From Schizochytrium sp. TIO01 (taxonomy: Eukaryota > Protista > Bigyra: Labyrinthulomycetes), in NCBI GenBank assembly GCA_004764695.1, contig SMSO01000036.1, positions 1,612,001 through 1,676,000 of the forward strand: DNA of 64,000 nucleotides. Direction: 5' to 3'. Shown piece after piece: positions 7,027-53,742 of this stretch; position 1 is the first letter of the stretch, and each line of letters starts with the position of its first letter. The position numbers and the translations under genes were made by a program. Under the pieces are notes generated by a model, which saw only the letters and a list, made by a program, of their open reading frames with translations, was not told the DNA's origin and did no database searches.

Positions 7027-10000
7027 AGGGGCTCTTGCTTCAAGCCGGGGCAAGCACGCTAACCTGCAAAGGGCAGACGTGATGCGGCGGCAGGAGCCAC
7101 ACGTCGTGGCCACTCACTGTAATAACGAGCATGGACGAGGGCTCAACGAACGTGCTCCGGAGTCCGCCGGTTCTTCAGATACACAGGCCTCGGGCGTGGT
7201 TTTGGGCGGCTGATGCACGGTCGCTCAAACCGGCTCACTGACTCACACTCTCTCACTCTCTCAGCTCAGTCCTTGCTCAGTTATGACGTGGCGGTGTGAA
7301 AGACTTTCGGAGAACCCAAACTCGAACAACAGCCATTGGAAAAAGCAATTTCAAGCTCTCTCTCACTCTCTCTCTGTCAATCGATCAACTCCTAAACAAG
7401 AAGTCGCAGTTCTTTCAAGCAAGAGAAGAAGACGAGAGCCCATTGATGGTACGTAGAGATAGACAGAGTAGAGAGTGGAGAGAGAGAGAAAGAAAGAGTG
7501 TGTGCGCCTCCTCCAGCTAGGAGACACAGCGGCGGTCTTAGAGAGCAACAGAAAAAAGAAGTATTTCAACAGCAGAAGTGCCGAGTGATTGGGTGATTAG
7601 GAGGATATCCTGAAAGATGAGTCGTCAGCTTCGTCGTCCCCAGAGCCTCTCTGTTTCTCGCCAACGTAACGCACGCGCGCAATTCATTCCACTTCATTTC
7701 ATTTCCTCGTCTTTCTGAAATTATTGTTGCTCTCAATTTTTCTGCTTGATGCAGCGTATCTTTGTTCTTTCTTTTCCCCCCCCTGCTTTTTCAGGATAAA
7801 AATAAAACTCGTGTACATAGGGCTGTAGTAGGGCACTCAGTTGGTAGGTACCACCTTAAATCTATAGTAACTTGGGTAAAAACTTGAACTCAAGCCACAA
7901 CAAAGAGAAAAACTTACTACCTCTGACTAATGAGAGTGCTACCGTATATAGCTAGCTGCTCCAGGTTGAGATCTTGCTACGGCTGATGCACATGCTAATG
8001 CCTACGTAGTACGCGGTAGGTAGGTAATGCCGTGACTGGGAGCATGACGCTTATTCGGGTAAAATCACCTATGAAACTCTACGGAAAGTACTAATGAGGA
8101 GTTAAGCTAAAGAGCGGCTGACAATTGTAGCTGGAGCTAGGAAATACTCAATAACATAGTTTTGTGAGCTATTTCTGCGAAGTAGTTTGCTAGTTAGCAC
8201 CAACAATCCGTACTCGATACCCCCCACCCCTTTCCAGGAGAACCGAGTGTACCGTATCTTCTGCAATAAGCCTCACCCGCGAGAGGGTTAGATAGTGAGT
8301 GTTTCAGGGCTAGATCCACTGCTGACTGCCACATTTTATTTCTAAAGATACTGGCACACCTACGTAGCTAGCTAGCTAAGTACCTACCTTCAAAAACGGG
8401 AAGTTTGACAACCACAGGCCACAGGAACTCGAAGGGATGTCTCAAAAACCATAGTCATGATAACCACGATTGACAGCAGCACCATCAATTTGTTTCATGG
8501 GCCACTGGCGATCACGATGTTGAATGCATTTTGATGATGGTTATGGATCACGAAAACAAAGTGGAAGAAAGTATGAAAATATACGTATACTATCTGTATC
8601 TAGCTAGTCACTATCAAACACTACGTAGCTAGCAGGTAAGTAGCAATATAGGTTGCTTGCTAACGAATTCAAGGGTTCGCAGGAATGCGCGGTGTCCGGT
8701 ATGAACGGGCGAGTAGCGGAGGAAAATAATCTGAGCGGTTGTGGGCCTCGCTTTATGAGAGCAGATAAAGGAATGGTTTGTACCCCCCCCTTCCGCACTG
8801 TCGATGTATGGTTAAGAGGGTGGAGAGGGGAACACGAGGGAACTTTTTGGTGAGTGATATTTTCTTCATTATCATTTTCTCTCTCTAGCTAGCTATAGTC
8901 AGAGCAAAGCTGAGCCCTTGGAATATGGAAGAAGAGCTCTGCTACTTATCGGAAGTGTTTCATCATGAAGCACTTTAGAGGTTTGTTTGTTCATTTATTT
9001 GTTTAATTGTATGGCTCTTCCTTCTGTGCCCCCCTATTTTCGCTCTGGTCCGGGTTCCTAGCTTCCAACGACCTTTCTTCTCGAAGAACCGGACGATCGT
9101 CCAGAGGGCAAAAGAGCACTCCGAGGAGTCGTGGAAATGACAGACAGGCCAGGTACTACTAGATACTAGCTAATAGATACTATCAGCTGCCCTGAGCAGA
9201 GAAAACTCGGGGAATTCTCTTCCTTTAAGTTCTGAGGAGCCAAAGAACGGCCGTCTCTGATCCTAACTAGTCCTATCGCCATGGAAAAAGAAAGAAAGGA
9301 ATGCTCTCAACAAAATAATCCGAAATTTCGATGGCCGCCGCGAGGATAATGGAGCTTAGAACTCCCCAAAGATCCTGCAGTCCTACTGTTAACAATATCT
9401 GGCGCTGTAGTATAAAACCCGCTCTCTGTGGAACTCCAGTAGGTAGTAGCCAATACTAGTCATGGTGGTAGATTTGGCTGCCCACTGCAGGGGACTGTGG
9501 GGAGTAGTCCCCAGGTTTGAAAAGCTGTTGAGATTTCGAGTTTTCTGACTCTTTGGTAAAATTTGAAATTACGTGCCGCTCGGGCGACCTCGCAGACGGT
9601 AGCGAGGCAATCACTATCGTCGAGACGTCAGATGCCACTCGCGAGAGTCAGGTTCGTCTTATTTCTACTTTTTGCTTCGTCACTGGCGGGAGAGCAGCTT
9701 TGGCAGCAGCAGGGGTCAGCGGCGGGAAGTCTTAATTCCCTCGCAAATTCGAGCTCGCAAGCACGTGAAGGCGCATTTGCTTCATCCATCGCGATGCATT
9801 TCGGTTTGCATTGCATTCAAAGCTGGGACTTGCGAAGATAAGATGGAAAGGGCCATTTTGAACGGGCCGCGTCCAAAACCTTGCAAGGATAAGCAATTAA
9901 TTCTTCTCTTCTGCAACCTCGCAGCCAAATGCACTTGGGTTTATGCCTGCTCGGGAGCGTGTCTCTCTAGGTCTTCGAGCCTCTCTGCTGACGGGTCACG

Positions 10001-12886
10001 CGCAGAAAGCCCTCCCTGTCGGTTATGCGGCATGCCATAGTCCGGCTGGAAACACAAGAATCAAAGCCAGACTTTCCGGAGACAGTTTGTCTCTGGTAGA
10101 GCAAGGGCAATTAATGGCACGCACGACATTGGGTTGAGACCAAGCGGAGAGACAACGACTACTACTTGGCCATTGCAGCGTCAGAGGGTACAGAGCGTCG
10201 TGGGCGAGTTCTGCGGCAAATGTAACATCTGGAGAGAATCTAGAGACAAGGACTTAGAAGCGCACTGAGGAGGACTGCCCTCTCGCGGATCGGATCTTAC
10301 GCAGGAGCACAGGGAGAAGGGTTTGGATTTGCGAGTAGTTCTTACAGAGGAGGTCAATGCTTTGAGCTGCTTTGCGGTCAGCAGCAGAGATCTCTCTTCG
10401 ACGAACCACGAAGGACAGGGAAGAGAGTCCAACGCTGGAGAACTTAGCGGTTGGGAACACCGGGTCGAGCGCACGGGGCGTATGGGCAATGTAGGTTCTC
10501 TCGAAGGGCGTTTCTTTGCCTGGAATTTCAAGAAAGCTCTGCGCAGAGGTGCACAGTTAGCTCGACAAGAATCCTCCTGGAGATCCAGTACTTCTTCTTG
10601 CAAATTAGAGAGGGGGAAAGAGAGAAAGAGAGCAGGCTCGATCGAGTGAGGAGGAGTGCAGTGCAGTGATGGCCATTCTTTCTTGGGAGCGTGGTCTGCT
10701 TTTCGTGGCTTTCCCGTACGTATAATGAAGATGGACGGAGCGATCGGTGCAGATGGTATGGAGAGACCAATGTATTGGCTCGTGACGTGTTTGTCACCTG
10801 CTATTTCTATTTCTACCGCTGCCACCGCCGCTACTTGGACATTCGTTTGCAGTGCTACACTTGCATTGTTTGTGGTGAGCAAAGGCCCAGATCGTCAAGA
10901 ACTGGCGAAATGACTGACGTAGGCGTGTTCACTAAGGTCCCTACAGTTCATCTATCTGGTTAGCTTTTCAAGTAAGTGACCAGCTAGCTATAGCTTGGTA
11001 GTATGTAATCAAGCAAGGAAGTAAGAAAAGGCGAAGAGGTCGTTAGGTTGTGAGAGGGGGTATTTTAGAAGGGGGCTTGATCGAGAAGATGAGCTGCCAA
11101 AACTAGACTAAAGGTGCCTGTTTTTCTTCTAGCGTAGAGCTATTTAGGATCCTTCTTTTGTGCTCTAGTGAGCGCCTTTTCGTCCTTTGCTTCGTGGGTT
11201 TTGCCTGCGTTTCCACTACTGCATATATAATTTCCATTGATTCATGGATTTATTCATCATTTGTAGGTTAGCTACCTACAATTTGTTGGTTTTTTTCAAG
11301 TGTTTTATTTTATTTATTTACTGTACAAAGTATTAAAAAAATGGTGAAAATAAGAAGAAAAACCTGAACGTCAACAGCGAGCCGACAGCGATGAGAGCGG
11401 CCTTTAGCGAGGGTATAGATAGGTGCTAACAGAACACTTAGGTGGTGTACGTTCAAAGGACACGGTGGAAGATAATCCGTGGCAAAATGATATGGGGTGA
11501 AAAAGCCCGCGCTAGGAAAGGGCTATCAGAAGTTCTAGCAGTCAAACACTTCGTTTGGCTGTTAGGCAATTTCTGTTTTTTCAATATTATTTTTCTTTTT
11601 TAACAGGGTAGTTAAGATAGGGGGTAGACTAGACATATTGCTTGATCCCAACGAGGGTTGTGACTATGGATTTGATCAGTGTATGCTCACTTGGAAAGGG
11701 GTTATACAGGGAAGTAAGGAATGTCCAAAGTACCCCCCCCCCCTAACTTTTTTTCTTTTAATGCGACGGACGGAAAATGCTGTCTGCTGTTTCTAGCCAT
11801 TGCTCTAATTAGCGGAAACTATACTCTTTTGCTAACACCAGCTCATTATCTTTTGAAAAGTACAGATTGGAGCCTTTAAAGAGGTACCGTACTAACCAAG
11901 AGCAGGCGGAGCAAAGAAGAAGTTTTTTTTTTTATTTTTAAGTTTTTTTGTATTAATATAAAAAGAATAAAGACATCAGTGTGTGGAGAACAGGAAAGTT
12001 TAGGATAGAATGCTAGAAAGCAGTACTGCCCTAGCGAAGAGACACAGAAAAGAAACTAAGAAGAAAAGAGAAATAAATGATAAAAAAAAAAGGAGGAGAA
12101 AAAGAAAACGAGCGCAGAGGGGGGGGGGGGCAGGAAGAGAAAAGGCACATAAAAAGAAATTAAAAAGACAAACAAACAGACGGCGGACGCGCTCGCGCAG
12201 AGAAACAAACACCCATCGCTCCTCTCTCCTCCCTCTGCTGAAGCTGGCGGCGTTAGGAGAGGCACCATAGGAGTTCACTAGACGCAGCTCCTAGTCGGCG
12301 CGTAGGAGGTCCTAGGCCCTGCCGGTAGCTGGGATCGCATAGGCCACAACTGGTGACACGTGCGAAACGTGCACTGTGACCCCCTTGTGAAAGTTACTCG
12401 TATATTATACCCCCCCTGACTTAGTCGGCGAAGCAGCGAGGGAAGCCCAGATAAGGGGCATCGCAAGCATTTAGCGCAAGGTAAGTCCCGCACGAAAGGT
12501 GCGTACACCCCGTTCTGTTTCTTGAGACTAGCTGGCTAGGGCTTGCTTTCCTGCCTTTGGCGAGGTGCCCTCGACGTGGAGGCGACGCTGGGAAGCAGCT
12601 GGGCGGACGGGTAGACGCTGGAGGCAGGTGTGGCTGCGCGCGGCTGGCAGCAGTATCGAGCGGCCGCCGCCGACCCGCGGAGGGCAGAAAGAAAGACAGA
12701 GGGCGAGGCGACAGACGGAAAGCGGCGAAAGAAAGTGCCGCCATAGAGAAGAAAGAACGTTCCAGGCCTTGGCGTGTTCTTTTCATCCTTCCTTGTTCCC
12801 GTTCCTGTCTCCAAAGGCGTTCTCTTGAGGCGCCCCCCCTTAGGCGAGTGCTTAGCCAGCTGGTAGAGCTGCCGAGGTTCGTTCTT

Positions 12887-13322
12887 TCGATCGATCGTCG
12901 GTTCGTTCTTTCGTTCGATCGATCGAGTGAGTGCCAAACAAAGCAATCGACCGATCGATCGATCGTTCATTCAATCGATCGATCAATCAATCGATCAATC
13001 AATCAATATACAGACGTCATACGTGGATATACGTTCTTACAGCCAGCCATATAAAGAAGGGAAGAACGAGAAAAAAACTGACAAAGCGAGACAAACAGAC
13101 GGATCGACAGACGGATTGATTAAGCAGAAAGCAGCTGGCTCCGGAGCGGGCAGCAATATTCAATCGCCGCCGCCTGCCGAGCAAGCGAGCCGGCCATCGG
13201 GCACGCTGAGCAGAGCTGAGCAGAGCTGTGCTTGAGCTAGGAAGGTGCAGGCAGGGCGGCCCCGCCAATCGATCGATCGATCGGTTAATCAATCAATCAG
13301 CCAATCAATCAATCAATCAATC
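12887..13322. repeat. Two low-complexity (GATC)n/(AATC)n arrays (about 12887-13008 and 13268-13322)
   Basis: cgatcgatcgatcg and aatcaatcaatc runs read directly. Confidence 0.85.
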
Positions 13323-13573
13323 CATCGACTCTGAGTGAGTTAGTTCCCCCTCACATTCCTTCATTCATTCCTTCATTCATTCCGCATCACGTTCATCAGC
13401 CGTTCTCTCCGCGGTTCTTCCTCCCTCCCATCCGTTCTTTTTTCCGTTCTTTTACCCCACCACCAGTACCTAGCCGCGCGCTAGCGAGGGACTAGCGGCA
13501 GTAGCGGGGTCCTAGCGCGTCCCGCAAGATCAGTGCGCGGAAGCACCTTAAGCGAGGCACCTTAACTGAGTGC

Positions 13574-13607
<34 letters not shown>

Positions 13608-15336
13608 CTCTGAAGAGAGAGACAGAAAGAGAGAGAGAGTGAGTGGCGGCGAGGCGGAGCGGGTTTAGGGTAGGAGGCATTAGGGGTCCCGTAGGGGCTG
13701 CGGCGCGGGCTGGGAGAGGCAGGAAACAACTTCGCGGCGGCACCGCCTCGGCCAGGCAGGAGCGCGGTCGGCAGCAGCGGCAGCGGCAGCGGCAGCAGCG
13801 GCGGCAGGCAGTAAGTAAGTAAGTAAGTAAGGAGCAGCGACGGCGAGAGGCCGGGCCGCAGAGGGAGCGCCGGCCGGGAGGAAGGGCGACAGCCAGCCAG
13901 CCCCGGCGATTCGGCACGCGAGAAAAAACTCAAACTAAGAAAGAAGAAGAAGTACGTGTAAAAGAAGAAAGCGGAGCGCATCGATCGAGACCAGCCCACG
14001 CACGAGGGCGGGCCTCGGAGCAGCGAGAGAAGGACGGCGAGCGGCAGACAGGCAGGCAGGCAGGCAGGCAGGCAGACAGGCAGGGCCCTGAGCAGCGAGC
14101 CGCAGCGGAAGGCCGAGCAGAGCCAGGCAGGCAGGCAGAAACTTTCCTGGAAAAGGCAAAAAGAACAGAAAGAACAGCGAACTGTGCCAAGCAGGGAGAG
14201 TGCGCCTGCTTACGCCGACCCGTTCTTTCTCCTGGTTGGCCTCCTGATCAAGGGAACATCAACTCGTGGGTCTGAAGGCGGAATAGACTCGGATTCTTTC
14301 AGTCCCTGTTCTACAATATAACATAGAAGAAGGGCACGAGAGGGTTTTTCCTCTTATTCCCCTCTCCTCTGTTTGTTTGTTCCTTTCTTTCTTTCACGGG
14401 TTGTTCTCTCGTGTTATTCTGGGGACACGTGGTCCGGTTTCGCGGAGCACACTGGGAGTGAGTGCCTGAGTGCCTGAGTCTCTTGAATCAAAGTCGAGAG
14501 TAAGAAAGAAAGAAAGATAGAAAGATAGAAAGAAAGCCCGTTCTCTGTCTCGTTGTTCGCTTCTGTTTTTGTTTTTCTTTCTTTCATTCTGTTCTTTCCT
14601 TTCCTCTCCTTTCCCTCCGGTCTTTTGCCTTCCTTCTTTCCTTCTCTTTTGTTTGTTTGTTTTCTTTTTTTCTTTTTTTCCCTTCGGCGCAGTTGAGGAG
14701 GTGGTAACGAACTGACTGACTGACTGACTGACTGACTAACTATTACTAACTAACGAAGTACCTCAGCAATTAGTAAGGGAGAGGATCGACGGGAAGAAAG
14801 AGGGCAGCAAAAGCGGAAAAGGCGGTGGTTAGTGAGCCGCTTAGTCGCGTACTTAGTCAGGGAATCAGTTAGCGTAGCGTAGCGAGCGAGCGAGCGAGGA
14901 TCGTCGATCCCGTTTCAAATTCTAACGCAAGGCGGGCGGCTAGATCGATCATCCACGCTCCCTCCCGCTGCCTGGCTATCTCGTCCTGCCCGCTCCGGTG
15001 TCCTGGGCTTGCTTCTGTTTTCGTTATTGTTTCTGGTATTGTTGTTGTTTGTTTGTTTTTGTTGTTTTTTCCTCTCTCGAGAAGAAGCAGAGGTCATTTG
15101 TTTGTCTTTCTTAACAAGCGAGGTGGAGGGAAAAAAAAGGAGGAAAAACAGAGAGAAATACGAAAGGAGGTCGTAAGAAGCGGCTAGGAAAGACTACGGA
15201 AGAAGAAGAAGAAGCAGCAGCAGCGACGGGGTCGTGGAGAGGCAAGGGAGAGGAGGAGGAGGGCGAGCAGCAGCAGCAGCCGCGGCAAAAGCGAGGAGGG
15301 GGAAAAAACGGAGCACCCCTCGGTTCTTCCTCGCTC

Positions 15337-18300
15337 GTGTTCAGGTGGGTTCAACAGGCCAGCAAGGCCGTGCTCAAGGTTGTGAAGGGCGGCGAGAAGC
15401 AGCCGGGAGAACCAGCAACCGCGTCTGGCACGGACAGCCACGCGGGCTCTACCTGCAGCATCCGCGACGAGGTCTGCAGCAGCGAAGCAAAAGCTTCTTG
15501 TTCCTCTTGTTCCTCTTCTCCTTCTTCTCCATTTGCTGGGAACGTCTGCACGACGGACCGCGAGAATAAGAAGCCCAGCCAGCGCACGGTGCGCGGAAAG
15601 GGTTCAGCTACGATAGATCTTGAAGGACTTGAGGTGGTTGCGTCCAAGGAGGAAGTGGACAAGGAGGTGTCCGAGCAGACCTCCGGAGGCGTAGAACAAC
15701 AGATAGCGGTGGAGGCCTGCAGGGAGGCGCCTTCCCATGCGCGGGGCGCGCCAGGTGACAAGCTCGTTGACCCCGAAGAACAACAGCCCCAACCTCCGAG
15801 CCAGGCGAATTCTGGCAAGGATATGAGCGAGGGGCCCCAAGGTGCAGCTGCTCTAGATTTACCGACCAAGAAGGTAGCTTCTAACCAGAGTGCAGACGTG
15901 ACGCCCTCGCAGGCAGCAGCTTCGAAAGACTCGGAGCAGGAGCAGCCTGCTCCTGCATCGACCGCAGTGTTGAAAACCAGAAAGGCCGAGGACAGCCAAC
16001 AAAGCGGCGAGAATTTGAGCGGAGAACCAGGGCAGAATTGTCTCGAGTCTTCATCTAGCTCGCACGCAGATCTCACAAAAGCCAGAAAAGAGGGACCGGA
16101 AGCGGCCGTGTCAACTAGCACCACGACGCCGAAATCCACAACATCGCCATCGCAGCCAGCCCCGACGACTAGAACGACGGGCGTAGCCACGAGATCGTCG
16201 CCGCGGGCGGCGGCCGCGGCGGCGACGCAACAACAAGCCGTCGAGGGCAACAGCAAAACAAATTGCGCGCAACAGGTCACAACTGCAGAGGCAAGCAGCG
16301 AGGAAACCATGCTATCTGACCCACCTCCCGCAACCGCAGTTCCTGTGCGGGAGCCTGCTTCCGTCACAGAATCAAGCACAACAACTCCACAGCATCAACA
16401 AGCGGTCTCAAACGAAGTTAAGCAAGAGCCGGTATCAAATTCTGCTAATGCACCAACAGCAGGGACAACAGTTGACGCTGTTAGCGCACCGTCAGCACCC
16501 GATTCGCAGAAACAACAGTCCCAAGCAAGCAACCCGCAAAACTCCTCCGGAAATTCACAGGTTGCCGCCACTGCAACAATGCCAACAACAACAGCACCGC
16601 CAACAGCAAGTGCAGCAAACGCTAATGCGAAACCTGGACCAGGTCCTGCTGGGCACCCACAACAACAACAACAACAACAGCAACACACGCCACGATCAGG
16701 AGCAAATGCAGCATCGGCGCGGTCAACGCCTGCAAAATCACCTTCGACAGCGTCAGGTCCTAATACAAGTAATGGAACGGTTACTTCAAGTCCCGCACGA
16801 ACTATGAATAACCAGGTTCCATCACATGGTCACATGAAACAAGAATCTGTTGCACGGACTGCCTCTGCTGGATCAACGAATACAGCTAGCATGGCAAGGA
16901 CCCAGACGGCTCAACAGGCACCTGCTGCTGCAAATGGAACCATCTCTGGGGCCCAGGCAGCTGTATCACAAACGCAAGCCGCACGGACAACACCACCCGC
17001 ACAACATGCCCCACCCTCGGATGGGAAATGGCGAGTTGACGCACAGGCTGATGTGGAACCACGGAGAGTGGTCATTCAGCAAATTGTCAGCTTATTAGAG
17101 TCTTGCAAGCCCAAGGCTTTTGCGCGTCGCCATGAGAAGCTTGTGGATCTCGCACGAAGGCTTGAGGTTGCTCTCTATAAACAGTCCAAAACGAAGGAGG
17201 AGTACATGGATCAAAAAACGTTACGCCAGCGTGTGCGAGAACTCGCTAAGGCGAGCACAGCACAACAGCAGCAACAACAACAGAGGCAAGCGGGGCAACC
17301 CGCAGGTGGTGCAAGGGCTACACCTGCCGCTCGCCCTCAACAACCGTCAACAGCAGCGGCAGCACCCGCAGCACCCGCAGCTGCCTCTCATGTCAATACG
17401 AAACCGACTTCAAATGCACCAGCTGCCGCAGGTGTTACTGTTGCTAAACCACCATCGTCCCCTGCCGTGCAGGCTCCAGCAAATGCAGCCCATGAGATTA
17501 AGGCGCCCGTAGCTGCTGCATCGACTCATCCTGCTGTGAACTCAGCAGCTGCTGCAGCAGCCGCTCGCCAAGCTGCCTACACAAACCAGCAGCAACAGAG
17601 GGTTGCTGCTGCAGCCGCCGCCGCTTCAGCTGCGACGGCCAATGGTACACCTGCTGTTGCTATCCCCCCTAACGCTGCTGCGTATGAAGCAAAGGGTGCC
17701 GGTGATGTTCGTATTAAAGTGAAACCGCCTGCACCAGCGGGGGGCAGCCAGCAAGCAGCAGCCGTAGCGGCAATGCAGCAGCAGCAGCAACAACAACAAC
17801 AACAACAGGCTGCAGCTGCAGCTGCTGGTACCCGCCCAGCATCATCTTCAGCTCATGATAAGGAGCAAATTCTTAAACAAAGGCAACAACGTTTGTTGCT
17901 TTTGCGACATGCTAGTCGCTGTCAAAACCCCGAAGGCACTTGTAAAGTTACGGAGCTCTGTGGACGCATGAAACGTTTGTGGAAGCACATTTCCAAGTGT
18001 AAAGATCCTCGTTGTCCTGAACCTCATTGTGTATCATCTCGCTATGTATTGTCACATTACCATCGTTGCGAGAAAGAAGAATGCCCTGTTTGTAAACCTG
18101 TCCGCCTCATCTCAGCATCACAACGTAGTCAGGCTCTTGCTGCCCAGCGTAAGCAGCAACAACAATTACAGGGCCTTGGTCAGCCAAGTTCCGGTGGAGC
18201 TGTACAACCAGGAGTGGCAGTGGCGCCTAGTTCTTCTGCATCTTCAGCAGCTGCATCACAAACTGCTGTAACATCCCCAGCTGCTGCTGCTGCTGCTGCT

Positions 18301-21300
18301 CCGGTAGTCACAGGCGCAACCTCCACACCGAAGCTTGCAGCTGCAAGTACTGCTGTCCCTCCTGTTGTTTTGCGACGTCCCGATGGTAGTGTTGTCAATG
18401 ACCCGGCGGTTCTTGCAAGGTATAATAACCTCTCTAGGCAACAACAACAGGCCCTGGCATTGCGTCAACAACAACAGAGCAACCAGTTAGCATTGCAACG
18501 TCAGCGCGTTTTGCAGCAGCGGCAACAGCTGCTGGCAAAGGAACAACGTGCGCAGTTTCCAAATGCTATCGATCCAACTAAAGCTCGCCACTGTAAGTCT
18601 GGCACTGGGCCTTCTTTGCCGTTCAGTATGTCTCGTAGAAGCGTTGAAAAGCACATCGAATCTCTCCGTGTTGAACGATTGCAGCCAAACCTTCGCCCAC
18701 TCTTGCGAAAACTTATTGAACACAAATCCAACAAAGGCATTTACAATGCCCCTGTGGATTGGAAGGCCATGAATATTCCGGACTATCCACGAATTATCAA
18801 AACTCCAATGGATCTTGGCACAATTCGCAAGCGTCTTGATGCTTCCTATTACACAACCCTGGACCAATTTAAAAACGACATTGTGCTTACTTTCAAGAAT
18901 GCAATGACCTTTAACCCTCCTGAAAATGAGTACCATACACGTGCTGCAGACTTGCTCAAGGTAGCACATAAAGAGTTTCCGCTGATCCTAAACAAGATTG
19001 AGCGAAATGGCAGGCCCAAAAACCAAGACTGTCAGCTTTGTCGTCAATCTGTTTGTGAACAATGTCCTTTATGTGAGCGGGGCTGCATTCCTTTCCAGCC
19101 GAAACTCCTATTTTGCTCGGGAACCTGTGGCAAACGTATCCAGCCCAATAGCGTATACTATACGGGTGTTGGGTACAACTATTGCTGGTGCAGTGACTGT
19201 TATGACAAAGCTCGTACCGGTGTTCTTTCAGTTAATGGCCAGTCCTATAACAAAGACAGTTTGACAAAGAAAAAGAACAACGAACTTTACGGTGAGCCTT
19301 GGGTATCCTGTGATAAATGTGACCGCTGGGTGCATCAGATTTGTGCGCTATTCAACTCACGTAAGAACAGCCTCACATCCTCACAGGATTACATTTGCCC
19401 TCTCTGTCTCATCGAGGAATCAAAACTTGGTGAAATAGAACGAGCAAACGAGTCCAAGTCCAAGTCTGGTGGAGGCAAGAAGGCAGCAGCTGCAGCAACT
19501 GAGGAAACTAAACCCAAGCCTGAACAGGCTACTGTAGCGAAAGATGCCAAGGATGAAAAGCCAACTACAGGAGACGATGCTACACGTGCGAAGGGAAAGT
19601 ACAAGCATTTTGTCCTTCCTGCTGGCAAGCGGGTACCGAGTGCAAGAGAGCTTGATCAATCTCGCCTTGGCGTATTTCTGGAAAAATGGCTTCGTAACTG
19701 TATTACTGAATTCCGCACTAGGGAGATGGAGCGCAAACCTGACATTTCTGACTATGAGCTTGGACCTGATGCGGACAAACTGCATGTTCGCATCCTGTCC
19801 AATTTTGATGAAAAGTGCCAGGTGAAGCCTTTTGTGAAACGACTTATCCCGGAGTATCCTGATGCTTTTCCATTCCGTTCACGTTGTATTTTCTTGTTCC
19901 AAGAACTCAATGGTGTTGACGTTCTCTTCTTTGCAATGTTTGTCCAAGAATACGGATCTGAGTGCCCTGAACCGAACCGTCGCAAGATTTACATCGCTTA
20001 CCTTGATTCTGTGTATTATTTCCAACCCCGCAGAATGCGTACAACCGTGTATCATGAGCTTCTTCTCGGGTATCTTGAATACATGCGTCGCATGGGCATG
20101 ACATCAACGTACATTTGGGCATGTCCTCCTCCTAACAAACGTGATGATTACATTATCCACTGCCATCCTGAAGATCAGCGTGTGCAAACACCTGAACGTT
20201 TACGAAAATGGTATCATGATATGATCAAGGTTGGTGCTGATCGAAGGATTTTTATGGGTTCGTGTGCTATGTTTGAGGAGCACTTCGAAGGTTCTGCTCG
20301 TACAAACCAGAAGAAGAGCAAATCTAAATCTAAAAAGCGCTCGAGCAAGTCTAAGTCCAAGTCTAAGTCAAAGAGCAGCAAAAAGGGAAAGAAGAGTAGT
20401 GGTCGAAAGGGTACCTCAACACGCCGTGTGAGCGGAGCAGCTGCCGCGGCTGCTGCTGCTGCTGCTGCTGCTGCCGAAGCAAAAGCAGCTGCCGAGGCCG
20501 CAGAGGCAGAGACTGAAGCGAAGAACGGGGACGGCGAAAACGAGAATAACGAGGATGACAATAACGATGAGGCACTTGGACTTCTTGCTGATGTTCCCGA
20601 TATGGACGGTGATGATGATGAGGAAGACGATGATGCGAACACCGAAGCAAAGGCGACACCTGAAGATGGCGTTCCGCTGAGTGAAGCAGACAAAGCTAAA
20701 GCCATTGCTGAGGCTGCAGGTGTTACTTTTCTTACACCAGCCAATGGGGTTCGTGCTGGTGATGATCGCATGCTTGCAGAAGACTTGGAACGCCGAAAGC
20801 TTACGAAACTTGCTGCTTCCGGTAATTTGCCTTACTTTGAGGGCGATTACTGGCCTCAAGAAGCCGAAGAACTTGCGAAGGAGCGTGCTAGACAAAAGAA
20901 GAAGGATGAAGATGGAAAGGGTGGTCGTAGTAAGCGAAAGCGTCGTCGCGCTGGGGAAGAAGCTGAAGAAAAGACCGAAGAAGCTGAACCTGAGGAAAAA
21001 CCTGTTGCAGAACTTGCTGTTGAGCTTTCTGAAGAGGAGGCTGTAGAGGCTCGTGTTCAACTAATGCAGCGACTTGCCCAACAACTTGAGGTCATGAAGG
21101 ATGATTTCCTGGTTGTCAAAATGGCGCACGAGTGCTCCCGATGCGGAAAGTATCTGCTTCGGGGACGATGGGAATGCCGCCATCCTTCATGCCTTGAGGA
21201 GTTCGGCTTTAATAAATCTTGTCCATTCGCTCTGTGTAATAGTTGCTACATTCTCGAATCGAAACGCCCAAAGGAACAACAACACGGTGGAGGTTGTATT

Positions 21301-23229
21301 GCTGATGGTGAAGCTGGTAGGCCAAAATCTGTTTCAGAAGAAGCGGACAAGGACGCTGGTAAAGACCAGGAGGTGATCGACGTAAACGTTGAGTTCAAAC
21401 GCAAGGAGCGCGAGCGCGAAGAGAAGGATGCTAGAGAAAAGGCAAAACGCGATGCTGAGATTAAAAAGAAGAAGGAGGCCAGAGAAAAAGCAAACGGCAA
21501 CCCTGATCAGAAGAAGGTCAAAGTAGAGGCTTCTGCAGCCGATGCTAAAGAGGCTACAGCTGGAAACTCTTCCGCACCATCAGCATTAGGGGATACTTCA
21601 AAGAGCTTGGGTAGCGAGGTGGCAAACTTGGAGATGAAGAAAGAGCCTGGCGATAATACAAAATCTGTTAGTGCTTCCGGGTCTGTAAAACGCAGCGCTC
21701 CGGAGAGCACTTCGGTAGTCAAACCAATTTCTTCATCTTCCGTCTCTGAAACGAAGGTAGATCCACCAGCAAAGCCGAATGGATTGTCCCGAGCAAAAGA
21801 GGTGAATAATGAAGCTAAGAAGGCAGAATCGTCGCCGGCAGCTGCTGTGGAAGTTGATGAGCAGAGCCAGCAGGTAGTGAAGAAGCAAAAGGTCTCAGAA
21901 ACCTCGTCCAAGGTAATTGAAACCTCGGCTAACAGTTCTTCAACCACTCAGGCTGGGGACAAAACCAAGTCACAAGACGAGAAAGGAATAACAAACAAGG
22001 CCGAAGATGGTAAGAAGCACTCCGATGCGGAAGACGAGGATAAGAAAAAGGAACTTCTCGCTGAATGGGAGAAGCAAAGCATTGAGTGTACTCGTGCTCC
22101 TGTTCACAGCCCGTCTGAAGATCATATTCTTCACTACGTGGATGAAAATCTTCCTGTGCAGACTCCTGACTACGACAAGATTATTAAGAACCATTTGCTT
22201 GAATCTCGCCACGCTTTTCTATCTCTGTGTACGGGGAACCGTTACCAGTTTGACCAGCAACGTCGAGCCAAGCATTCAACAATGATGGTTCTCTATCATC
22301 TTCACAACCCAGATGCACCAGCTCATCTTTACACGTGCTTTGAGTGTCACAATGATATTCTTACAGGAAAGCGCTACCACTGTGATGTCTGTAACGGAGG
22401 TGATTACGATATCTGTATTCATTGTAAGAGACAGACGCGCCACGATCATACTCTCACACCCTTTGTTGTTACCCGTGGTGTTCAGGCAGAAACGTCAGAA
22501 TCGCAACGGATGCAACGTGTCCAGGAGATGCAGAGAGCTCGCCAACACTCCCTCACGCTATTCTTGGATGCATTGGTGCACTCTTCTCAGTGTGACGACC
22601 CTCAGTGCACAAAGGCTCCTTGCAAGAAGATGAAGGACTTGCTCAAACATCGTATGACTTGCGAAGTTCGAGTTCGTGGTGGCTGCGAAATATGTCGCCG
22701 TGTACTTTGCCTTGTGCAAATGCACGCTCGTAACTGTACCACTGTGAATTGTCGTGTACCACACTGCGAGGACCTCAAGGTCCACATCAACAAACACAAA
22801 CAGCAAATGCAGCTCGCTCGCCAACCGGCGGGTGATGCTGCTCCAGGTGCATCTGCTTCGACTGCAGCTCCGGCTGCACGTTCACAGCAGCAGCCGCAGC
22901 AGCAGCCGCAGCAACTTACTCAACAGCAGTTGCAACATCAACATCAACTGCTTCAACAGCGACAACGCCAGCTGCAGGCTCAGGCTCAAGCCCTTGCCCA
23001 AGCTCAGGCCCGTGGTGCGCGTGGCAACCGCGCACCCCGTACAGTAGGGGCTGCTGCCCAAGCCATCACTCAAGCCGGACAGCAAATCCAAGCTACTGTA
23101 GTAGAAGGAAGTGGAGGAACAAAAATCAAGATTCGTCCAACTAATTTGAAGCCTTCGAACACAACGGCACCTCCTGCTTCAGGATCTAACTCCCGTGCCC
23201 CGCGTGGCCAACGGAACGCGCGAAGATAA
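15337..23229 (+). CDS. CBP/p300-family (KAT3) histone acetyltransferase; start uncertain (frame open from 15115, first in-frame ATG 15823, next 16309)
   Basis: Ordered domains: KIX/Med15-like WR...LARRLEVALYKQSKTKEEYMD (about 17030-17245); TAZ (LLLLRHASRC...HC...HYHRC, about 17875-18105); bromodomain (PVD...IPDYPRIIKTPMDLGTI...NAMTFN, about 18690-18990); Cys-rich RING plus PHD (WVSCDKCDRWVHQIC); KAT11 HAT (YLDSV, YIWACPP, DDYIIHCHP, LRKWY, LPYFEGDYWP, RRAKHSTMM); two ZZ fingers; second TAZ; polyQ/polyA linkers. Confidence 0.96.
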   Translation: MFRWVQQASKAVLKVVKGGEKQPGEPATASGTDSHAGSTCSIRDEVCSSEAKASCSSCSSSPSSPFAGNVCTTDRENKKPSQRTVRGKGSATIDLEGLEVVASKEEVDKEVSEQTSGGVEQQIAVEACREAPSHARGAPGDKLVDPEEQQPQPPSQANSGKDMSEGPQGAAALDLPTKKVASNQSADVTPSQAAASKDSEQEQPAPASTAVLKTRKAEDSQQSGENLSGEPGQNCLESSSSSHADLTKARKEGPEAAVSTSTTTPKSTTSPSQPAPTTRTTGVATRSSPRAAAAAATQQQAVEGNSKTNCAQQVTTAEASSEETMLSDPPPATAVPVREPASVTESSTTTPQHQQAVSNEVKQEPVSNSANAPTAGTTVDAVSAPSAPDSQKQQSQASNPQNSSGNSQVAATATMPTTTAPPTASAANANAKPGPGPAGHPQQQQQQQQHTPRSGANAASARSTPAKSPSTASGPNTSNGTVTSSPARTMNNQVPSHGHMKQESVARTASAGSTNTASMARTQTAQQAPAAANGTISGAQAAVSQTQAARTTPPAQHAPPSDGKWRVDAQADVEPRRVVIQQIVSLLESCKPKAFARRHEKLVDLARRLEVALYKQSKTKEEYMDQKTLRQRVRELAKASTAQQQQQQQRQAGQPAGGARATPAARPQQPSTAAAAPAAPAAASHVNTKPTSNAPAAAGVTVAKPPSSPAVQAPANAAHEIKAPVAAASTHPAVNSAAAAAAARQAAYTNQQQQRVAAAAAAASAATANGTPAVAIPPNAAAYEAKGAGDVRIKVKPPAPAGGSQQAAAVAAMQQQQQQQQQQQAAAAAAGTRPASSSAHDKEQILKQRQQRLLLLRHASRCQNPEGTCKVTELCGRMKRLWKHISKCKDPRCPEPHCVSSRYVLSHYHRCEKEECPVCKPVRLISASQRSQALAAQRKQQQQLQGLGQPSSGGAVQPGVAVAPSSSASSAAASQTAVTSPAAAAAAAPVVTGATSTPKLAAASTAVPPVVLRRPDGSVVNDPAVLARYNNLSRQQQQALALRQQQQSNQLALQRQRVLQQRQQLLAKEQRAQFPNAIDPTKARHCKSGTGPSLPFSMSRRSVEKHIESLRVERLQPNLRPLLRKLIEHKSNKGIYNAPVDWKAMNIPDYPRIIKTPMDLGTIRKRLDASYYTTLDQFKNDIVLTFKNAMTFNPPENEYHTRAADLLKVAHKEFPLILNKIERNGRPKNQDCQLCRQSVCEQCPLCERGCIPFQPKLLFCSGTCGKRIQPNSVYYTGVGYNYCWCSDCYDKARTGVLSVNGQSYNKDSLTKKKNNELYGEPWVSCDKCDRWVHQICALFNSRKNSLTSSQDYICPLCLIEESKLGEIERANESKSKSGGGKKAAAAATEETKPKPEQATVAKDAKDEKPTTGDDATRAKGKYKHFVLPAGKRVPSARELDQSRLGVFLEKWLRNCITEFRTREMERKPDISDYELGPDADKLHVRILSNFDEKCQVKPFVKRLIPEYPDAFPFRSRCIFLFQELNGVDVLFFAMFVQEYGSECPEPNRRKIYIAYLDSVYYFQPRRMRTTVYHELLLGYLEYMRRMGMTSTYIWACPPPNKRDDYIIHCHPEDQRVQTPERLRKWYHDMIKVGADRRIFMGSCAMFEEHFEGSARTNQKKSKSKSKKRSSKSKSKSKSKSSKKGKKSSGRKGTSTRRVSGAAAAAAAAAAAAAEAKAAAEAAEAETEAKNGDGENENNEDDNNDEALGLLADVPDMDGDDDEEDDDANTEAKATPEDGVPLSEADKAKAIAEAAGVTFLTPANGVRAGDDRMLAEDLERRKLTKLAASGNLPYFEGDYWPQEAEELAKERARQKKKDEDGKGGRSKRKRRRAGEEAEEKTEEAEPEEKPVAELAVELSEEEAVEARVQLMQRLAQQLEVMKDDFLVVKMAHECSRCGKYLLRGRWECRHPSCLEEFGFNKSCPFALCNSCYILESKRPKEQQHGGGCIADGEAGRPKSVSEEADKDAGKDQEVIDVNVEFKRKEREREEKDAREKAKRDAEIKKKKEAREKANGNPDQKKVKVEASAADAKEATAGNSSAPSALGDTSKSLGSEVANLEMKKEPGDNTKSVSASGSVKRSAPESTSVVKPISSSSVSETKVDPPAKPNGLSRAKEVNNEAKKAESSPAAAVEVDEQSQQVVKKQKVSETSSKVIETSANSSSTTQAGDKTKSQDEKGITNKAEDGKKHSDAEDEDKKKELLAEWEKQSIECTRAPVHSPSEDHILHYVDENLPVQTPDYDKIIKNHLLESRHAFLSLCTGNRYQFDQQRRAKHSTMMVLYHLHNPDAPAHLYTCFECHNDILTGKRYHCDVCNGGDYDICIHCKRQTRHDHTLTPFVVTRGVQAETSESQRMQRVQEMQRARQHSLTLFLDALVHSSQCDDPQCTKAPCKKMKDLLKHRMTCEVRVRGGCEICRRVLCLVQMHARNCTTVNCRVPHCEDLKVHINKHKQQMQLARQPAGDAAPGASASTAAPAARSQQQPQQQPQQLTQQQLQHQHQLLQQRQRQLQAQAQALAQAQARGARGNRAPRTVGAAAQAITQAGQQIQATVVEGSGGTKIKIRPTNLKPSNTTAPPASGSNSRAPRGQRNARR

Positions 23230-24022: not shown

Positions 24023-25054
24023 TTATGCAAGCTGGTCAGCACGCTTAGTTTTGTCAATAGCTTGTGAGATAAATGGTTCAAACTCTTTCATACAAACCTC
24101 AATACGGGTAATGATTTCTGAAAATGCCGGGCGCGCACCACTGTCTTCCTTCCAGCAATCGTTCATGAGCTGATTCAGTATTTCTGGACAATGTTTAAGA
24201 TACTCAGGACGAAGTCCCTTCTTCGCAACGAGGTATGGCAATTCAACGCAATCTTGGTCCTGGTATGGTTTTTCGAAACAAAACAACTCCCAAAGAACTA
24301 CACCATATGAATAAACGTCAACCGTTTCGGTGTATGGTTCGCCTCGGAAGATTTCAGGAGCGACCCAGCAAGGGGTACCACACACAGTCATGACCGCCTT
24401 TGTTTCGTAGCCACGAGATAACCCAAAGTCTGTGAGCTTGCAATTGAACTTGTCATCTAGGAGCAGGTTTTCTGCCTTCAGGTCTCGATGAATAATTTTG
24501 GGAGTGAGAGCATGCAAATATGCCACAGCTCGTGCACAGTCCAGTGCAATCTTTAAGCACATCCTCCAGGTGACATTGACTCGATGTTTACGGACCATGT
24601 TGAGCAAACTACCTACGCTGCCTTCACAAAGCTCAAACAGAAGGCAGTAGTTAGGGTCAGCACGGCAAGCACCTAAGAACTGGATGATACACTCGTGCTT
24701 CAGAATGCTGAGGATTTTAATCTCTTTGGCAAAGTCCTCGAGGATCTCAGCACGCTCATCAGGAACTACAGAGAGGAAAATTTTCTTAACCGCGATGTGT
24801 CTGTTGTTGTAATGCGCCTTGTACACTTTGCCGTAGGTACCTTGGCCAATCGTTTCGTGGATTTGGATATCATCATAGTCTACATCGAGTCCAAAGAATG
24901 TCTCCGCATCGATACTTTGTGAAGAACTCTTTTGCACCCCTTCTGCATGATTAAAGTATATGAGCGTCCCCGTAGGCTTGCTTGCAAGTCCGTTCGTCTC
25001 CGGGTCCAGCGTTTCTGTCTGTTGTTTATGCTTCGATGAAGCTGCGCCACCCAT
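24023..25054 (-). CDS. Tyrosine-kinase-like (TKL, RAF/MLK-type) protein kinase, probably N-myristoylated, 343 aa
   Basis: GQGTYG, IAVKK, HRDLKAEN, DFG, GTPCWVAPE, DVYSYGVVLWE and CW...RP motifs. The first ATG (accATGg, 25054) gives MGGAAS, a myristoylation-type N-terminus. Confidence 0.93.
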   Translation of the reverse strand: MGGAASSKHKQQTETLDPETNGLASKPTGTLIYFNHAEGVQKSSSQSIDAETFFGLDVDYDDIQIHETIGQGTYGKVYKAHYNNRHIAVKKIFLSVVPDERAEILEDFAKEIKILSILKHECIIQFLGACRADPNYCLLFELCEGSVGSLLNMVRKHRVNVTWRMCLKIALDCARAVAYLHALTPKIIHRDLKAENLLLDDKFNCKLTDFGLSRGYETKAVMTVCGTPCWVAPEIFRGEPYTETVDVYSYGVVLWELFCFEKPYQDQDCVELPYLVAKKGLRPEYLKHCPEILNQLMNDCWKEDSGARPAFSEIITRIEVCMKEFEPFISQAIDKTKRADQLA

Positions 25055-28255: not shown

Positions 28256-31226
28256 ATGAGTCGCAAATACGAAGAGGATCCATATGCATTTGACTTTGAC
28301 TTTAGTAAAAACTCATCCAAAAGTAGACACGGTCCTGGCTCTTTGCCCAGTGAGAAGGCGAAGGATAGAACAGGTTTTAATAGATCAATAAGGCAAGATG
28401 GGGAGTCCACGCCCATGTCTGCCCTAGATCGAGCAGGATACTATCTGAAGAAATATAGCACCAAGGAAATATCCCAAAAGTCTAGGACAGAACAATATAA
28501 ACAGCACAGCACAGAGGAAGATGAGGACAGCGATCGATGGCTAGATCCTGAACATAATGCTTATAGTCAAGGAGATAGCGAGGATCTTGATCTCGCAGAT
28601 TCTCAGAGCGAATCTGCTTCAACATCTTTGGTGAATATTCCCAGAGGACTCACACGAACCGATGGAAAAATTGGAGGACTGCATTTGGACGGCCCAAAAT
28701 ATTTAGACACACAAAAGTCGGGCTTAGAATCAGATGCTTCATTTTCTGAACACGGTGGGTCTTTAGGCCTTGGGGAGCTTGAATCTATATCTTTTAATAG
28801 ATTTGGAGCTCCGTGGCAACCCTCGGAACCACTCTCTCCTGATTCAGCACAATCGCCATTATCCTCTCAACGAAAATCTCTCGTACGATCCCAAACAAAA
28901 GATGAGAGCATTCGCTGGCAACGAAAGATAGAAAACGATAGATATCAGTATAGATCATTCAGCAATGACAGCGATGAAATCAAATTTGATGAAGATGAAG
29001 ATGATCTTGAAGACGAGGTCGGGGAAGAAAATAGCGATCTTGACTCAGACTCTGATTACGAGGCGGCATTGAAAGAAATTCAAAGGGAAGAAGAGGCTCG
29101 ACGCCGCGAGGCTCTTCGCATGATGCAAGATGCTAAAAGCATGGCCGAGCACTTTGATGAGCCGAATCCTTTTGCGTCACAGCAATACAAGCCGTCGCGT
29201 TCTCAGGTCAAATTTGAGGACAATGAATTAGAATCAGATGCAACTGAGGAAGAGGAGAGTTATACCAGAGATTCAGAGCTTGCTCGAAGTGGTCGAAGTC
29301 CAGGTCAGATAAGGGAGGATGCTGAAGACAATGAAGACGACGAAGACGATGAGGATGAGGATTATGAACAAGCCATGCAACTTCTTGAGGAGGAGGAGGC
29401 ACAAAGACGTAAAGAAGCTTTGCGGATGTTGCAGGAAGCAAATGCTGCAGAAGGTGGTGCTTCTGGACTCAGTAATTCGGAGGAAACCTTACGAAATAAA
29501 CTGTCTTCGACTCTTGTAAAAGAACGCCGTTCGTCCAATCCATCATTTCTCTCAAAGGACACATCTGGGAATAAGGCGCATGATAATGGCAAAATGTCAG
29601 CCCATAAACAAGATAATGAGAGTTTGGAGGATGAAGGTGATGAATATTTACATGCAATGAAGGAGCTTAAAGAAGAAGAGGAGCGCCAGAAACAAGAAGC
29701 TCTTAGTATGCTTACATCAACATCACTAATGCCAAAAAATTATAATACTCATCCCACAGTGTCAGGAGGAGTATTAAGAGAGAGCAAGGCCAAGGGTCTA
29801 CACGTGGTCATCCAAGACAGCACATACCACGCCCAGCGGGTTCAAGTGAAAGGTGTAGAAGTTGACGAAGAGGATGAAGATGAAGAGTTCAATGGCATGG
29901 AGGATGAGGATACATTTGTTGAGGATGGATTTGTTCTTGACTCTGCTCGACAAACCTTGAGTGCACGAGATGGGAGCGCCGTACAGACTGTATATTCTTC
30001 TTTTGCAGAAGATGCTAGCGAGAGTATGGCAGACCTTATGTCTCCTCGTTCAGTCAAGAGTAGGGTTTCAGCACGATCACTCCGATCTACATTTAGTGCA
30101 AAATCTCCCAAATCAATTCGCTCTTTACGTTCACGTCGAACACATTTATCTCTTGGTAGGCAAAGTAGTGCAGAGTCCTTCTTTTGATGAATATAGTGCT
30201 GATGACTTTGAATCAGAAAATGGATCTCCTCGATCAGCTCGATCTGGGCGTTCGATACGTTCAAGTCGATCTCAGCTTTCTGTACGACACGACCACCATT
30301 CTCCACAAAAGCCTAGATCTAGTCGTAGTCACCCAGCATCGCCTCGGTCTCCACCTCTAAGCTCCATCACAAATCGAAGTCATCTTATTGCGCAGCATGC
30401 AAAAATTACATCAAGTCACCCTGAAAATAGTTCTGCTCCTACCGAGAACCATCCCGCGCAAAATCAAGAACATAAAGCAAGTCCTCAGTTGCCAATGCGT
30501 GATGCTTCGACACAATACATTGAAACAAAAGAAATCGAAGTTCAGGCTAATTTGGTGGTATCAGCATCAGGGCTCGTGTATGAAGTACCAGAAGCACCTA
30601 TGGGCGCTGTAGCACCAACACTCTTTCCCTCGAAGACTGAATCAAATATTGCTAATGCGGCACGGAATCCAACCTCCACTTGTTCATGTCACGCAAGTCG
30701 ATTTGAAGACCAGAATAATTTTGCTCGAAGCGCCCTTGAAGCGCTTCTAAACCCTTTGAATACAACATACACTAGTACACATGCACAGGCGCTGCGGGGA
30801 CCTTGGGCATCAAGTATTCCTGTTCAGTCGGCAAACACAAACTTTCGAAATGTTTACGCGGACGAAACTCCTGCCCCAACAGGTAAAATGCCGTTTCCTG
30901 CTAATCAAGCCACGCCGCCTCCAATGCCCCCGTCACCTCGACAGCAACCACCCGAAACAAGCTGTCAAGGTGTTTCGAGACTTGACGGACTTACGGCTTC
31001 ATTACTGGCAACGAACAATATGTTTAAGCGTAATCTCGAGATGATTCGATCCCATTTGCAAGAATGCAGGCTAGAGACTGATCGTGTCATGAGCGAGATG
31101 GGCGGAATTAATTCTGGGCATCGATACACGCGGTTCAGTGATGTTCGAGCATACATGAACGCTAATCGACCTAAAGTGCGCTCTTTTGAATATGTAATGC
31201 AAGAAGAGGAGAATACATTTCACTAA
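28256..31226 (+). CDS. Acidic/Ser-Arg-rich protein with C-terminal DUF4614 (C19orf44-like) region; reading frame changes near 30150-30216
   Basis: Frame 1 (28256-30187) and frame 2 (to 31226) share S/R-rich composition across the junction. Frame 2 has YSADDFE, KEIEVQ and NNMFKRNL...HRYTRFSDVRAYMNANRP...FEYVMQE, which resemble the DUF4614 C-terminus as I recall it; needs an HMM check. Confidence 0.65.
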
Positions 31227-53562: not shown

Positions 53563-53742
53563 ACAAACAAACAAACAAACAAACAAACAAACAAATAAAC
53601 AAACAAACAAACAAACAAACAAACAAACAAACAAACAAACAAACAAACAAACAAACAAACAAACAAACAAACAAACAAACAAACAAACAAACAAACAAAC
53701 AAACAAACAAACAAACAAACAAACAAACAAACAAACAAACAA
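53563..53742. repeat. (AAAC)n microsatellite, about 45 units
   Basis: Nearly pure array with one AAAT variant. Confidence 0.98.

What the first reader, a model, noticed from the sequence alone, without database searches (positions are those of the whole stretch)
12080..15736. 3.65-kb strand-specific ATG desert in front of the CBP/p300 gene
Seen: reading line by line, I found no ATG on the + strand between 12077 and 15737, while CAT occurs about 30 times in the same span. Base composition alone should not give this asymmetry. Established: scanning ribosomes select against upstream AUGs in 5' leaders. Inference: this is an extremely long, AUG-purged leader for a master co-activator. It contains splice-like signals (AAG|GTAAGT at 12481; pyrimidine tracts ending in AG at about 14692 and 15118), yet those putative introns are ATG-free too. 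That would fit retained introns or multiple TSSs and a dedicated translational-control system.
Basis: partly seen in the sequence, partly recalled or inferred. Interest (0 to 1): 0.8.

Follow-up and report, generated by a model that had tools for sequence, protein, structure and literature searches.

The report
Giant AUG-free leader of protist CBP
A marine protist's CBP/p300-type chromatin regulator gene is preceded by 3.66 kb without a single ATG; this stretch is spliced in public assemblies of likely RNA, is likely kept free of false starts so that ribosomes can scan it, and its last 0.6 kb likely encodes an extra protein front end that would begin at a non-AUG codon.

Summary
There is no + strand ATG between 12077 and 15737, against 31 CAT and 15-22 ATG expected. 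The gene is a thraustochytrid CBP/p300-type acetyltransferase. Contigs from 4 of 4 probable RNA runs splice out 12481-13098; 1 of 4 splices 13952-14766. Cover jumps at about 12.17-12.29 kb, just after the last ATG. Unspliced forms also occur, which would explain ATG-free introns. New: the CBP frame stays open for 236 codons upstream of 15823, with coding-type periodicity (z 3-4) and an ACG in A-3/G+4 context at 15196. This suggests a non-AUG N-terminal extension, as in Neurospora cpc-1. No homologue of the extension was found and translation is untested. The scan has found similar, shorter deserts in fungi, and a 0.94-kb one lies in this window. Verdict: an extreme variant of a known kind.

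The parts
12080..15736 (+). ATG-free stretch (3657 nt)
12171..12480 (+). Leader exon 1; 5' end approximate (contigs begin at 12171, 12219 and 12287 in three runs)
   Evidence: tables 2, 7, 8; contigs cannot fix a start site
12481..13098 (+). Intron 1 (618 nt, GTAAGT..ACAG), ATG-free, spliced and also seen unspliced
   Evidence: joint in 4 of 4 runs; contigs run from exon 1 into it in 4 of 4; boundaries
13099..13951 (+). Leader exon 2 (853 nt), rich in tetranucleotide repeats
13952..14766 (+). Intron 2 (815 nt, GTACGT..TCAG), ATG-free; a second acceptor 8 nt upstream (AG at 14757-14758) is inferred from contig ends
   Evidence: joint in 1 of 4 runs; contigs cross the donor unspliced in 2 of 4
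14767..15195 (+). Untranslated start of exon 3; last in-frame stop at 15112
15115..15822 (+). Stop-free, Met-free frame continuous with CBP (236 codons); coding-like from about 15196
15196..15198 (+). Candidate near-cognate start ACG with A at -3 and G at +4 (alternatives: GTG 15370, GTG 15382 and other in-frame near-cognate codons)
   Evidence: use as a start is inferred
15737..15826 (+). Out-of-frame uORF, 29 codons, poor context (C at -3 and +4); its TGA overlaps the in-frame ATG as ATGA
15823..23229 (+). CBP/p300-type ORF from the first in-frame ATG, 2468 aa, uninterrupted: weak KIX_2, TAZ, bromodomain, PHD, HAT_KAT11, ZZ, TAZ

Best explanation
The desert is the 5' part of the CBP/p300-type transcript, spliced in two places and also present unspliced, and it is likely purged of AUG because ribosomes would scan it from the cap, likely starting a long protein at a near-cognate codon (best candidate ACG 15196) and a shorter one at AUG 15823. 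Shown: no ATG; contig cover begins about 100-200 nt after the last ATG; two GT-AG joints; contigs that read through both donors; an open, coding-like frame upstream of the first in-frame ATG. Inferred: (1) selection against upstream AUGs acts on the introns too, because intron-containing or intron-starting RNAs reach ribosomes; (2) a scanned distance of about 1.6 kb (spliced) to 3.0 kb (unspliced) to 15196; (3) inefficient initiation at the near-cognate codon adds about 209 residues; (4) ribosomes that leak past meet the poor-context AUG 15737, whose uORF covers AUG 15823 and would divert some of them, while the rest start at 15823. CBP amount and isoform ratio would then depend on start-codon stringency.
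For: Depletion is triplet- and strand-specific. The desert's 5' edge matches the jump in contig cover. The intron 1 joint is in 4 of 4 runs from 4 studies. Intron 1 read-through contigs are in 4 of 4 runs, at 2-6 times the upstream background, a crude unspliced share of 0.10-0.38. Donor 2 is crossed unspliced in 2 of 4 runs. Extension: 0 in-frame stops against 5 and 6 in the other frames, and 15 of 5000 shuffles (0.003) are stop-free. Frame contrast for 15196-15822 is z 3.1-4.3 in 4 of 4 models, two trained without any CBP sequence; 15370-15822 exceeds the best of 42 equal-length leader windows in each model. Microsatellites are period 3 or 6 in 6 of 29 cases in 12171-15195, period 3 in 4 of 4 in 15196-15822 and in 25 of 25 in the coding region. 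One contig's length fits an intron-free path from 14759 to a poly-Q repeat at 17804. Precedent: cpc-1, where a conserved ACG with A-3/G+4 lies in frame upstream of an inhibitory uORF (PMC5487733).
Against: No homologue of the extension was found, and the six closest relatives printed are annotated with under about 100 residues before KIX. The periodic signal is strong only in 15586-15822 (z 2.7-3.5). It is weak in 15196-15369 (z 1.1-1.7) and 15346-15584 (z 1.5-2.0), so the ACG itself is poorly pinned. The runs are only guessed to be RNA, contig depth is a poor measure, and unspliced contigs may be nuclear precursors or DNA. Contigs were laid only up to 14990, so the extension's letters were not checked against other runs. 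A distant relative has only 347 ATG-free nt (L003). No ribosome or proteome data were available.
Confidence: 0.55

Rival explanations
1. The whole desert is an ordinary but very long untranslated leader. Translation starts only at AUG 15823 or further down, and the open frame upstream is a chance product or a recently abandoned coding relic.
For: No homologue of the extension; relatives have short N-termini; the region is T-poor, so long open frames arise easily (several of 100-215 codons); absence of AUG in all three frames is what a leader should show.
Against: In-frame stop-free length (0.003 of shuffles), codon periodicity at least equal to the first 450 nt after AUG 15823, and only triplet repeats in a region otherwise full of tetranucleotide repeats.
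Confidence: 0.27
2. The desert is mainly a dispersed-promoter feature: transcription starts at many sites along the 3.6 kb, including inside the introns, and ATG absence lets all transcripts encode one protein (the ATG-desert promoter class). Most mRNAs would have short leaders.
For: Contig depth is higher on exon 3 than on exons 1-2 in the 3 runs that cover it, and slightly higher at the 3' end of intron 1 in 2 runs (a weak hint only). The concept is described in PMC5580651 (passages).
Against: Spliced joints from exon 1 in 4 of 4 runs show that long forms exist; depth differences can come from 3' bias; dispersed starts in that review span 50-100 nt, not kilobases. Partly compatible with the best explanation.
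Confidence: 0.12
3. An assembly error or strain-specific change hides a normal ATG (for example at 15196), so the gene simply has a 3.0-kb pre-mRNA leader and an ordinary start.
For: The window differs from all four runs at 4 listed substitutions in 10000-11000 and from three runs at a homopolymer at 12410; ACG 15196 is one letter from ATG and has a strong context.
Against: A normal coding stretch would usually hold some ATG: 12 in the first 1178 nt after 15823, none in the 541 nt of 15196-15736. It would not remove the 3.1-kb desert upstream.
Confidence: 0.05
4. Base composition and simple repeats produce the gap by chance.
For: The region is T-poor and repeat-rich; masking repeats lowers the expectation from 22 to 15.
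Against: No shuffle approaches zero; CAT is at expectation; the edge coincides with the start of contig cover.
Confidence: 0.01

Closest known systems
Neurospora/Pezizomycotina cpc-1 near-cognate-initiated N-terminal extension (PMC5487733; abstract and first part of section 6 read)
   Same: Regulator gene; reading frame open for hundreds of nt upstream of the first in-frame AUG; in-frame near-cognate codons, including an ACG with A-3/G+4, upstream of an out-of-frame uORF.
   Different: cpc-1 has two uORFs in good context, a leader of about 700 nt and conservation in 100 species with experimental support. Here there is one poor-context uORF, a 1.6-3.0 kb AUG-free approach with two introns, and no conservation or translation evidence.
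General depletion of upstream AUGs from eukaryotic 5' UTRs (PMC7889888; passages; effect on translation in PMC7049704, passages)
   Same: Same direction and presumed cause: upstream AUGs lower translation of the main frame.
   Different: Here depletion is complete over 3.66 kb and extends through two spliceable introns. For scale, the median leader in Cryptococcus is 105 nt.
ATG-desert promoter class (Lee et al. 2005, paper not held; seen only as described in PMC5580651, passages)
   Same: ATG-free DNA at the 5' end of a gene lets different 5' isoforms encode one protein.
   Different: Defined for dispersed core promoters. Here the desert lies almost wholly downstream of the apparent start and is strand-specific; dispersed starts were not testable.
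CBP/p300 (KAT3) acetyltransferases; nearest named relative Hondaea fermentalgiana 'HAC5' (84% over the searched region)
   Same: TAZ, bromodomain, PHD, HAT_KAT11, ZZ, TAZ order; best solved matches are CBP and p300.
   Different: About 400 residues (600 with the extension) of low-complexity sequence before KIX, against under about 100 in relatives as annotated.

Membership tests
CBP/p300 (KAT3) acetyltransferases | HAT_KAT11 catalytic domain | tested here: met
   108.8 bits, cut-off 22.5; E 1.9e-105 to CBP
CBP/p300 (KAT3) acetyltransferases | Bromodomain and PHD before, ZZ and TAZ after the catalytic domain; a second TAZ upstream | tested here: met
   (all above cut-off; TAZ two stretches)
CBP/p300 (KAT3) acetyltransferases | KIX domain | tested here: inconclusive
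   KIX_2 20.5 bits, below the cut-off of 25.6; 86% identical to the Hondaea stretch
CBP/p300 (KAT3) acetyltransferases | Acetyltransferase and co-activator activity | not testable with these tools
   inferred from homology only
AUG-depleted scanned 5' leader | Region is transcribed on the gene's strand | tested here: met
   GT-AG joints on the + strand in 4 of 4 probable RNA runs, for 12.2-15.0 kb
AUG-depleted scanned 5' leader | AUG below a composition-aware null on the sense strand only | tested here: met
AUG-depleted scanned 5' leader | Ribosomes scan it from the cap | not testable with these tools
   needs 40S profiling or reporters
cpc-1-type near-cognate N-terminal extension | Long stop-free frame upstream of the first in-frame AUG | tested here: met
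   236 codons
cpc-1-type near-cognate N-terminal extension | In-frame near-cognate codon in good context upstream of a uORF | tested here: met
   ACG 15196, A-3/G+4; uORF at 15737
cpc-1-type near-cognate N-terminal extension | Conservation of the extension and its start codon in relatives | tested here: inconclusive
   no homologue found; no DNA of a close relative obtained
cpc-1-type near-cognate N-terminal extension | Two uORFs for re-initiation control | tested here: not met
   only one upstream ATG in the transcript region
cpc-1-type near-cognate N-terminal extension | Initiation at the near-cognate codon shown | not testable with these tools
   no ribosome or proteome data
ATG-desert promoter class | ATG deficiency at the 5' end of the gene | tested here: met
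ATG-desert promoter class | Multiple dispersed transcription starts | not testable with these tools
   contigs cannot show starts

The most novel reading that the evidence does not exclude
A stramenopile makes its CBP/p300 master co-activator from a non-AUG codon reached after 1.6-3.0 kb of AUG-free scanning. Intron retention sets the scanning distance without creating uORFs, and a single overlapping uORF guards the downstream AUG, so CBP dose and N-terminal isoform follow start-codon stringency.
Probability: 0.35. Interest if true: 0.72.

Novelty: new variant of a known kind. Interest (0 to 1): 0.5.

Why it matters
How far a ribosome can scan in a natural mRNA is an open question. A leader with no AUG over 1.6-3.6 kb, in a culturable protist group used in biotechnology (recalled), is a ready test substrate, and complete purging argues for linear scanning rather than internal entry (inference). 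ATG-free introns give a sequence-only marker for introns that are retained or contain starts. A non-AUG start on a CBP/p300 gene did not turn up in the searches run and would mean the protein's N-terminus is missed by gene models. If only the leader part holds, it is an extreme case of a well-known rule.

Tried and rejected
No whole genome is held, so no genome-wide desert scan was possible. No run is on record as RNA; 4 of the 24 listed runs were laid, all guessed to be RNA, and holes in their cover were not used as evidence. Searches for homologues of the extension found none: proteins of 30-1486 aa, about 8000 candidates each; of the 150 best hits listed, no best stretch begins before query residue 511. 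Searches for related loci gave 3 in metagenomes, none in viral contigs and none in prokaryote genomes; none is a close relative with a long upstream flank. The exact protein is not in the collection. Strain variants: 0 of the 17 listed substitutions in 12080-14990 create an ATG (3 table rows were not shown), but only about 0.8 would be expected, so there is no power. An ATG created by splicing was rejected: none at the four junctions tried, and the two YAG|TG acceptors lie upstream of in-frame stops. Structured RNA or IRES: 5 Rfam matches, all far below gathering score; folding z between -1.9 and +1.2 in 13 windows. The bacterial promoter scan was empty and does not apply. Literature searches (listings only unless stated) showed nothing on thraustochytrid leaders or on non-AUG starts of CBP/p300; PMC5961209 (passages) and PMC11057154 (abstract) are background only.
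Full report
Observation. The + strand has ATG at 12077 and next at 15737, a gap of 3660 nt; the next longest gap in the window is 510, and CAT occurs 31 times in the span. The region's own dinucleotides predict 22 ATG. Block-wise shuffles give 17.3 with a minimum of 5 in 1000, and masking tandem repeats leaves 15. Upstream DNA is normal (27 seen, 25.2 expected). The depletion is specific to this triplet and this strand.

The gene. A single open frame runs stop to stop from 15115 to 23229. Its first in-frame ATG is 15823, giving 2468 aa. Pfam finds TAZ (two stretches), bromodomain, PHD, HAT_KAT11 and ZZ above cut-off, and KIX_2 below it. The best solved matches are CBP and p300. The closest named protein is from Hondaea fermentalgiana at 84% over the searched region, then Mucochytrium at 64%, so the organism is a thraustochytrid (inference). 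ATG 15737, which ends the desert, is out of frame and in poor context. It opens a 29-codon uORF whose TGA overlaps ATG 15823 as ATGA.

Transcript structure. No run is on record as RNA; 17 holders are guessed to be. Four of them, from four studies, were laid on 10000-14990. Contig cover rises sharply at about 12.17-12.34 kb, with contigs starting at 12171, 12219 and 12287, which is 94-210 nt after the last ATG. A second joint removing 13952-14766 is present in 1 of 4. Contig ends at 14759 in two other runs suggest a second acceptor 8 nt upstream (inferred). Neither used acceptor has a long pyrimidine tract; both have a CTGAC or CTAAC motif shortly upstream (branch-point reading recalled). No joint used the tract ending near 14692.

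Unspliced forms. In 4 of 4 runs a contig runs from exon 1 into intron 1, at depths 11.1, 22.1, 95.3 and 69.5 against upstream background of 5.6, 7.55, 16.6 and 19.1 and spliced joints of 52, 57.9, 165 and 112.9. That is a crude unspliced share of 0.10-0.38. In 2 of 4 runs a contig crosses donor 2 unspliced; the other two have a contig end or no cover there. The tool warns that contig depth is a poor measure and that DNA may be present, and such contigs can be nuclear precursors. The introns are themselves significantly ATG-free (0 of 5000 shuffles; 5.5 expected after masking). That is expected if intron-containing or intron-starting RNAs are translated.

The last 0.6 kb looks coding. From 15115 to 15822 the CBP frame has no stop, against 5 and 6 in the other frames; 0.003 of 5000 shuffles are stop-free. 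Three-periodic models score 15196-15822 in the CBP frame with z 3.1-4.3 in 4 of 4 models, two trained without CBP. The 453 nt from 15370 exceed the best of 42 leader windows in every model, and score at least as well as the first 453 nt after ATG 15823 (z 0.0-2.3). The signal is uneven: z 2.7-3.5 in 15586-15822, 1.5-2.0 in 15346-15584 and 1.1-1.7 in 15196-15369. Microsatellites switch from mostly tetranucleotide (6 of 29 of period 3 or 6) to period 3 only (4 of 4) at 15199 (TRF agrees). Among 19 in-frame near-cognate codons listed, ACG 15196 has A at -3 and G at +4. Seven of the eight other ORF starts printed correctly in that call have a purine at -3; they are unvalidated first ATGs. One contig of run X1 contains 15153-15182, and its length ends at 17804 if colinear, one triplet short of the end of a poly-Q repeat, where an allele break is expected. 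This argues against a third intron but does not check individual letters.

Against the extension: no homologue in three searches or in the Hondaea protein, and relatives are annotated with short N-termini. Low-complexity N-termini diverge fast and gene models start at ATG, so this is weak, but conservation is unshown.

Relatives and controls. Three metagenome loci were found. L003, encoding P0005 (56% identical in alignment A1), has only 347 ATG-free nt and 14 ATG further upstream; it too has an out-of-frame uORF (7 codons) ending as ATGA on the main start, which may be chance. L001 has 575 ATG-free nt up to the contig end. L002 has a 416-nt gap and then a 3-codon uORF. So the giant desert is not shown outside this lineage. 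In the window, the gene starting at 40642 (-) has 943 ATG-free nt upstream (0 in the 938 nt shuffled against 11.0 expected, 0 of 1000 shuffles); the other eight starts tested have 5-280 nt. Long purged leaders may therefore be fairly common in this organism.

Mechanism. Most likely, the transcript starts near 12.2 kb and is scanned from the cap. Distances are 1600 nt spliced or 3025 nt unspliced to 15196, and 2227 or 3652 nt to 15823. Upstream AUGs lower main-frame translation (PMC7049704, passages) and are generally selected against (PMC7889888, passages), so every AUG in exons and in often-kept introns was lost. A near-cognate start would give a long isoform. Leaky ribosomes would meet the weak AUG 15737 and then AUG 15823. 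Complete purging fits linear scanning better than internal entry; no structured RNA was found. I put about 0.9 on the purged transcribed leader and about 0.6 on translation of the extension.

Comparison and novelty. It works like cpc-1 in layout (PMC5487733, abstract and part of section 6) but lacks the two-uORF system and has no tested conservation, so it is not filed as a member. It overlaps with the ATG-desert idea (PMC5580651, passages), whose defining dispersed starts could not be tested. Earlier notes of this scan report similar deserts of 1-2.9 kb before fungal regulators (unchecked) and none for CBP or thraustochytrids. The literature searches listed under Tried and rejected found no report of this locus. 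Interest 0.5.

Noticed in passing
window 40643-41580 (-): Second long ATG-free stretch (943 nt to the next ATG) directly upstream of a 700-aa ORF with no Pfam match; 11.0 ATG expected, 0 of 1000 shuffles reach zero; holds one GTGAGT donor-like site.
   Followed up: partly
L003 1039-1062: In a distant relative an out-of-frame 7-codon uORF also ends with its TGA overlapping the main ATG (ATGA), as in the window.
   Followed up: partly
window 13060-13098 and 14725-14766: The used acceptors lack pyrimidine tracts, while the long pyrimidine tract ending near 14692 gave no joint.
   Followed up: partly
window 13049-13056: TATAAAG motif near the 3' end of intron 1, with slightly higher contig depth there in two runs; possible internal start.
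   Followed up: no
window 16891-16893: In-frame ATG in strong context about 50 codons before KIX, where relatives' annotated proteins begin; it may be the ancestral start, with about 1-1.7 kb of coding sequence gained upstream.
   Followed up: no
window 28256-31226 (+): Two long ORFs (643 and 418 aa) overlap by about 220 nt in different frames, neither with a Pfam match; possible intron, frameshift or assembly error.
   Followed up: no
window 34105-34827 (-): 240-aa ORF with a short match to the Herpes_UL52 primase family (31.3 bits).
   Followed up: no
window 24023-25054 (-), 32323-33195 (-), 36407-38218 (+): Protein kinase, carbon-nitrogen hydrolase and SAC3/GANP genes. The short ORF starting at 303 looks like ribosomal protein L24 (recalled, not from a call).
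   Followed up: no
window 42000-64000: Almost no long ORFs, with long (CAAA)n and (TTTG)n arrays near 53560-53740 and 62610-62730.
   Followed up: no
window 10000-11600: Low contig cover in all four runs upstream of the leader; DNA background or a separate transcript. Four substitutions here are shared by all runs against the window.
   Followed up: no
P0008: A protein labelled as from a chytrid fungus ranks among the thraustochytrid-like hits; possible mislabelled sequence.
   Followed up: no
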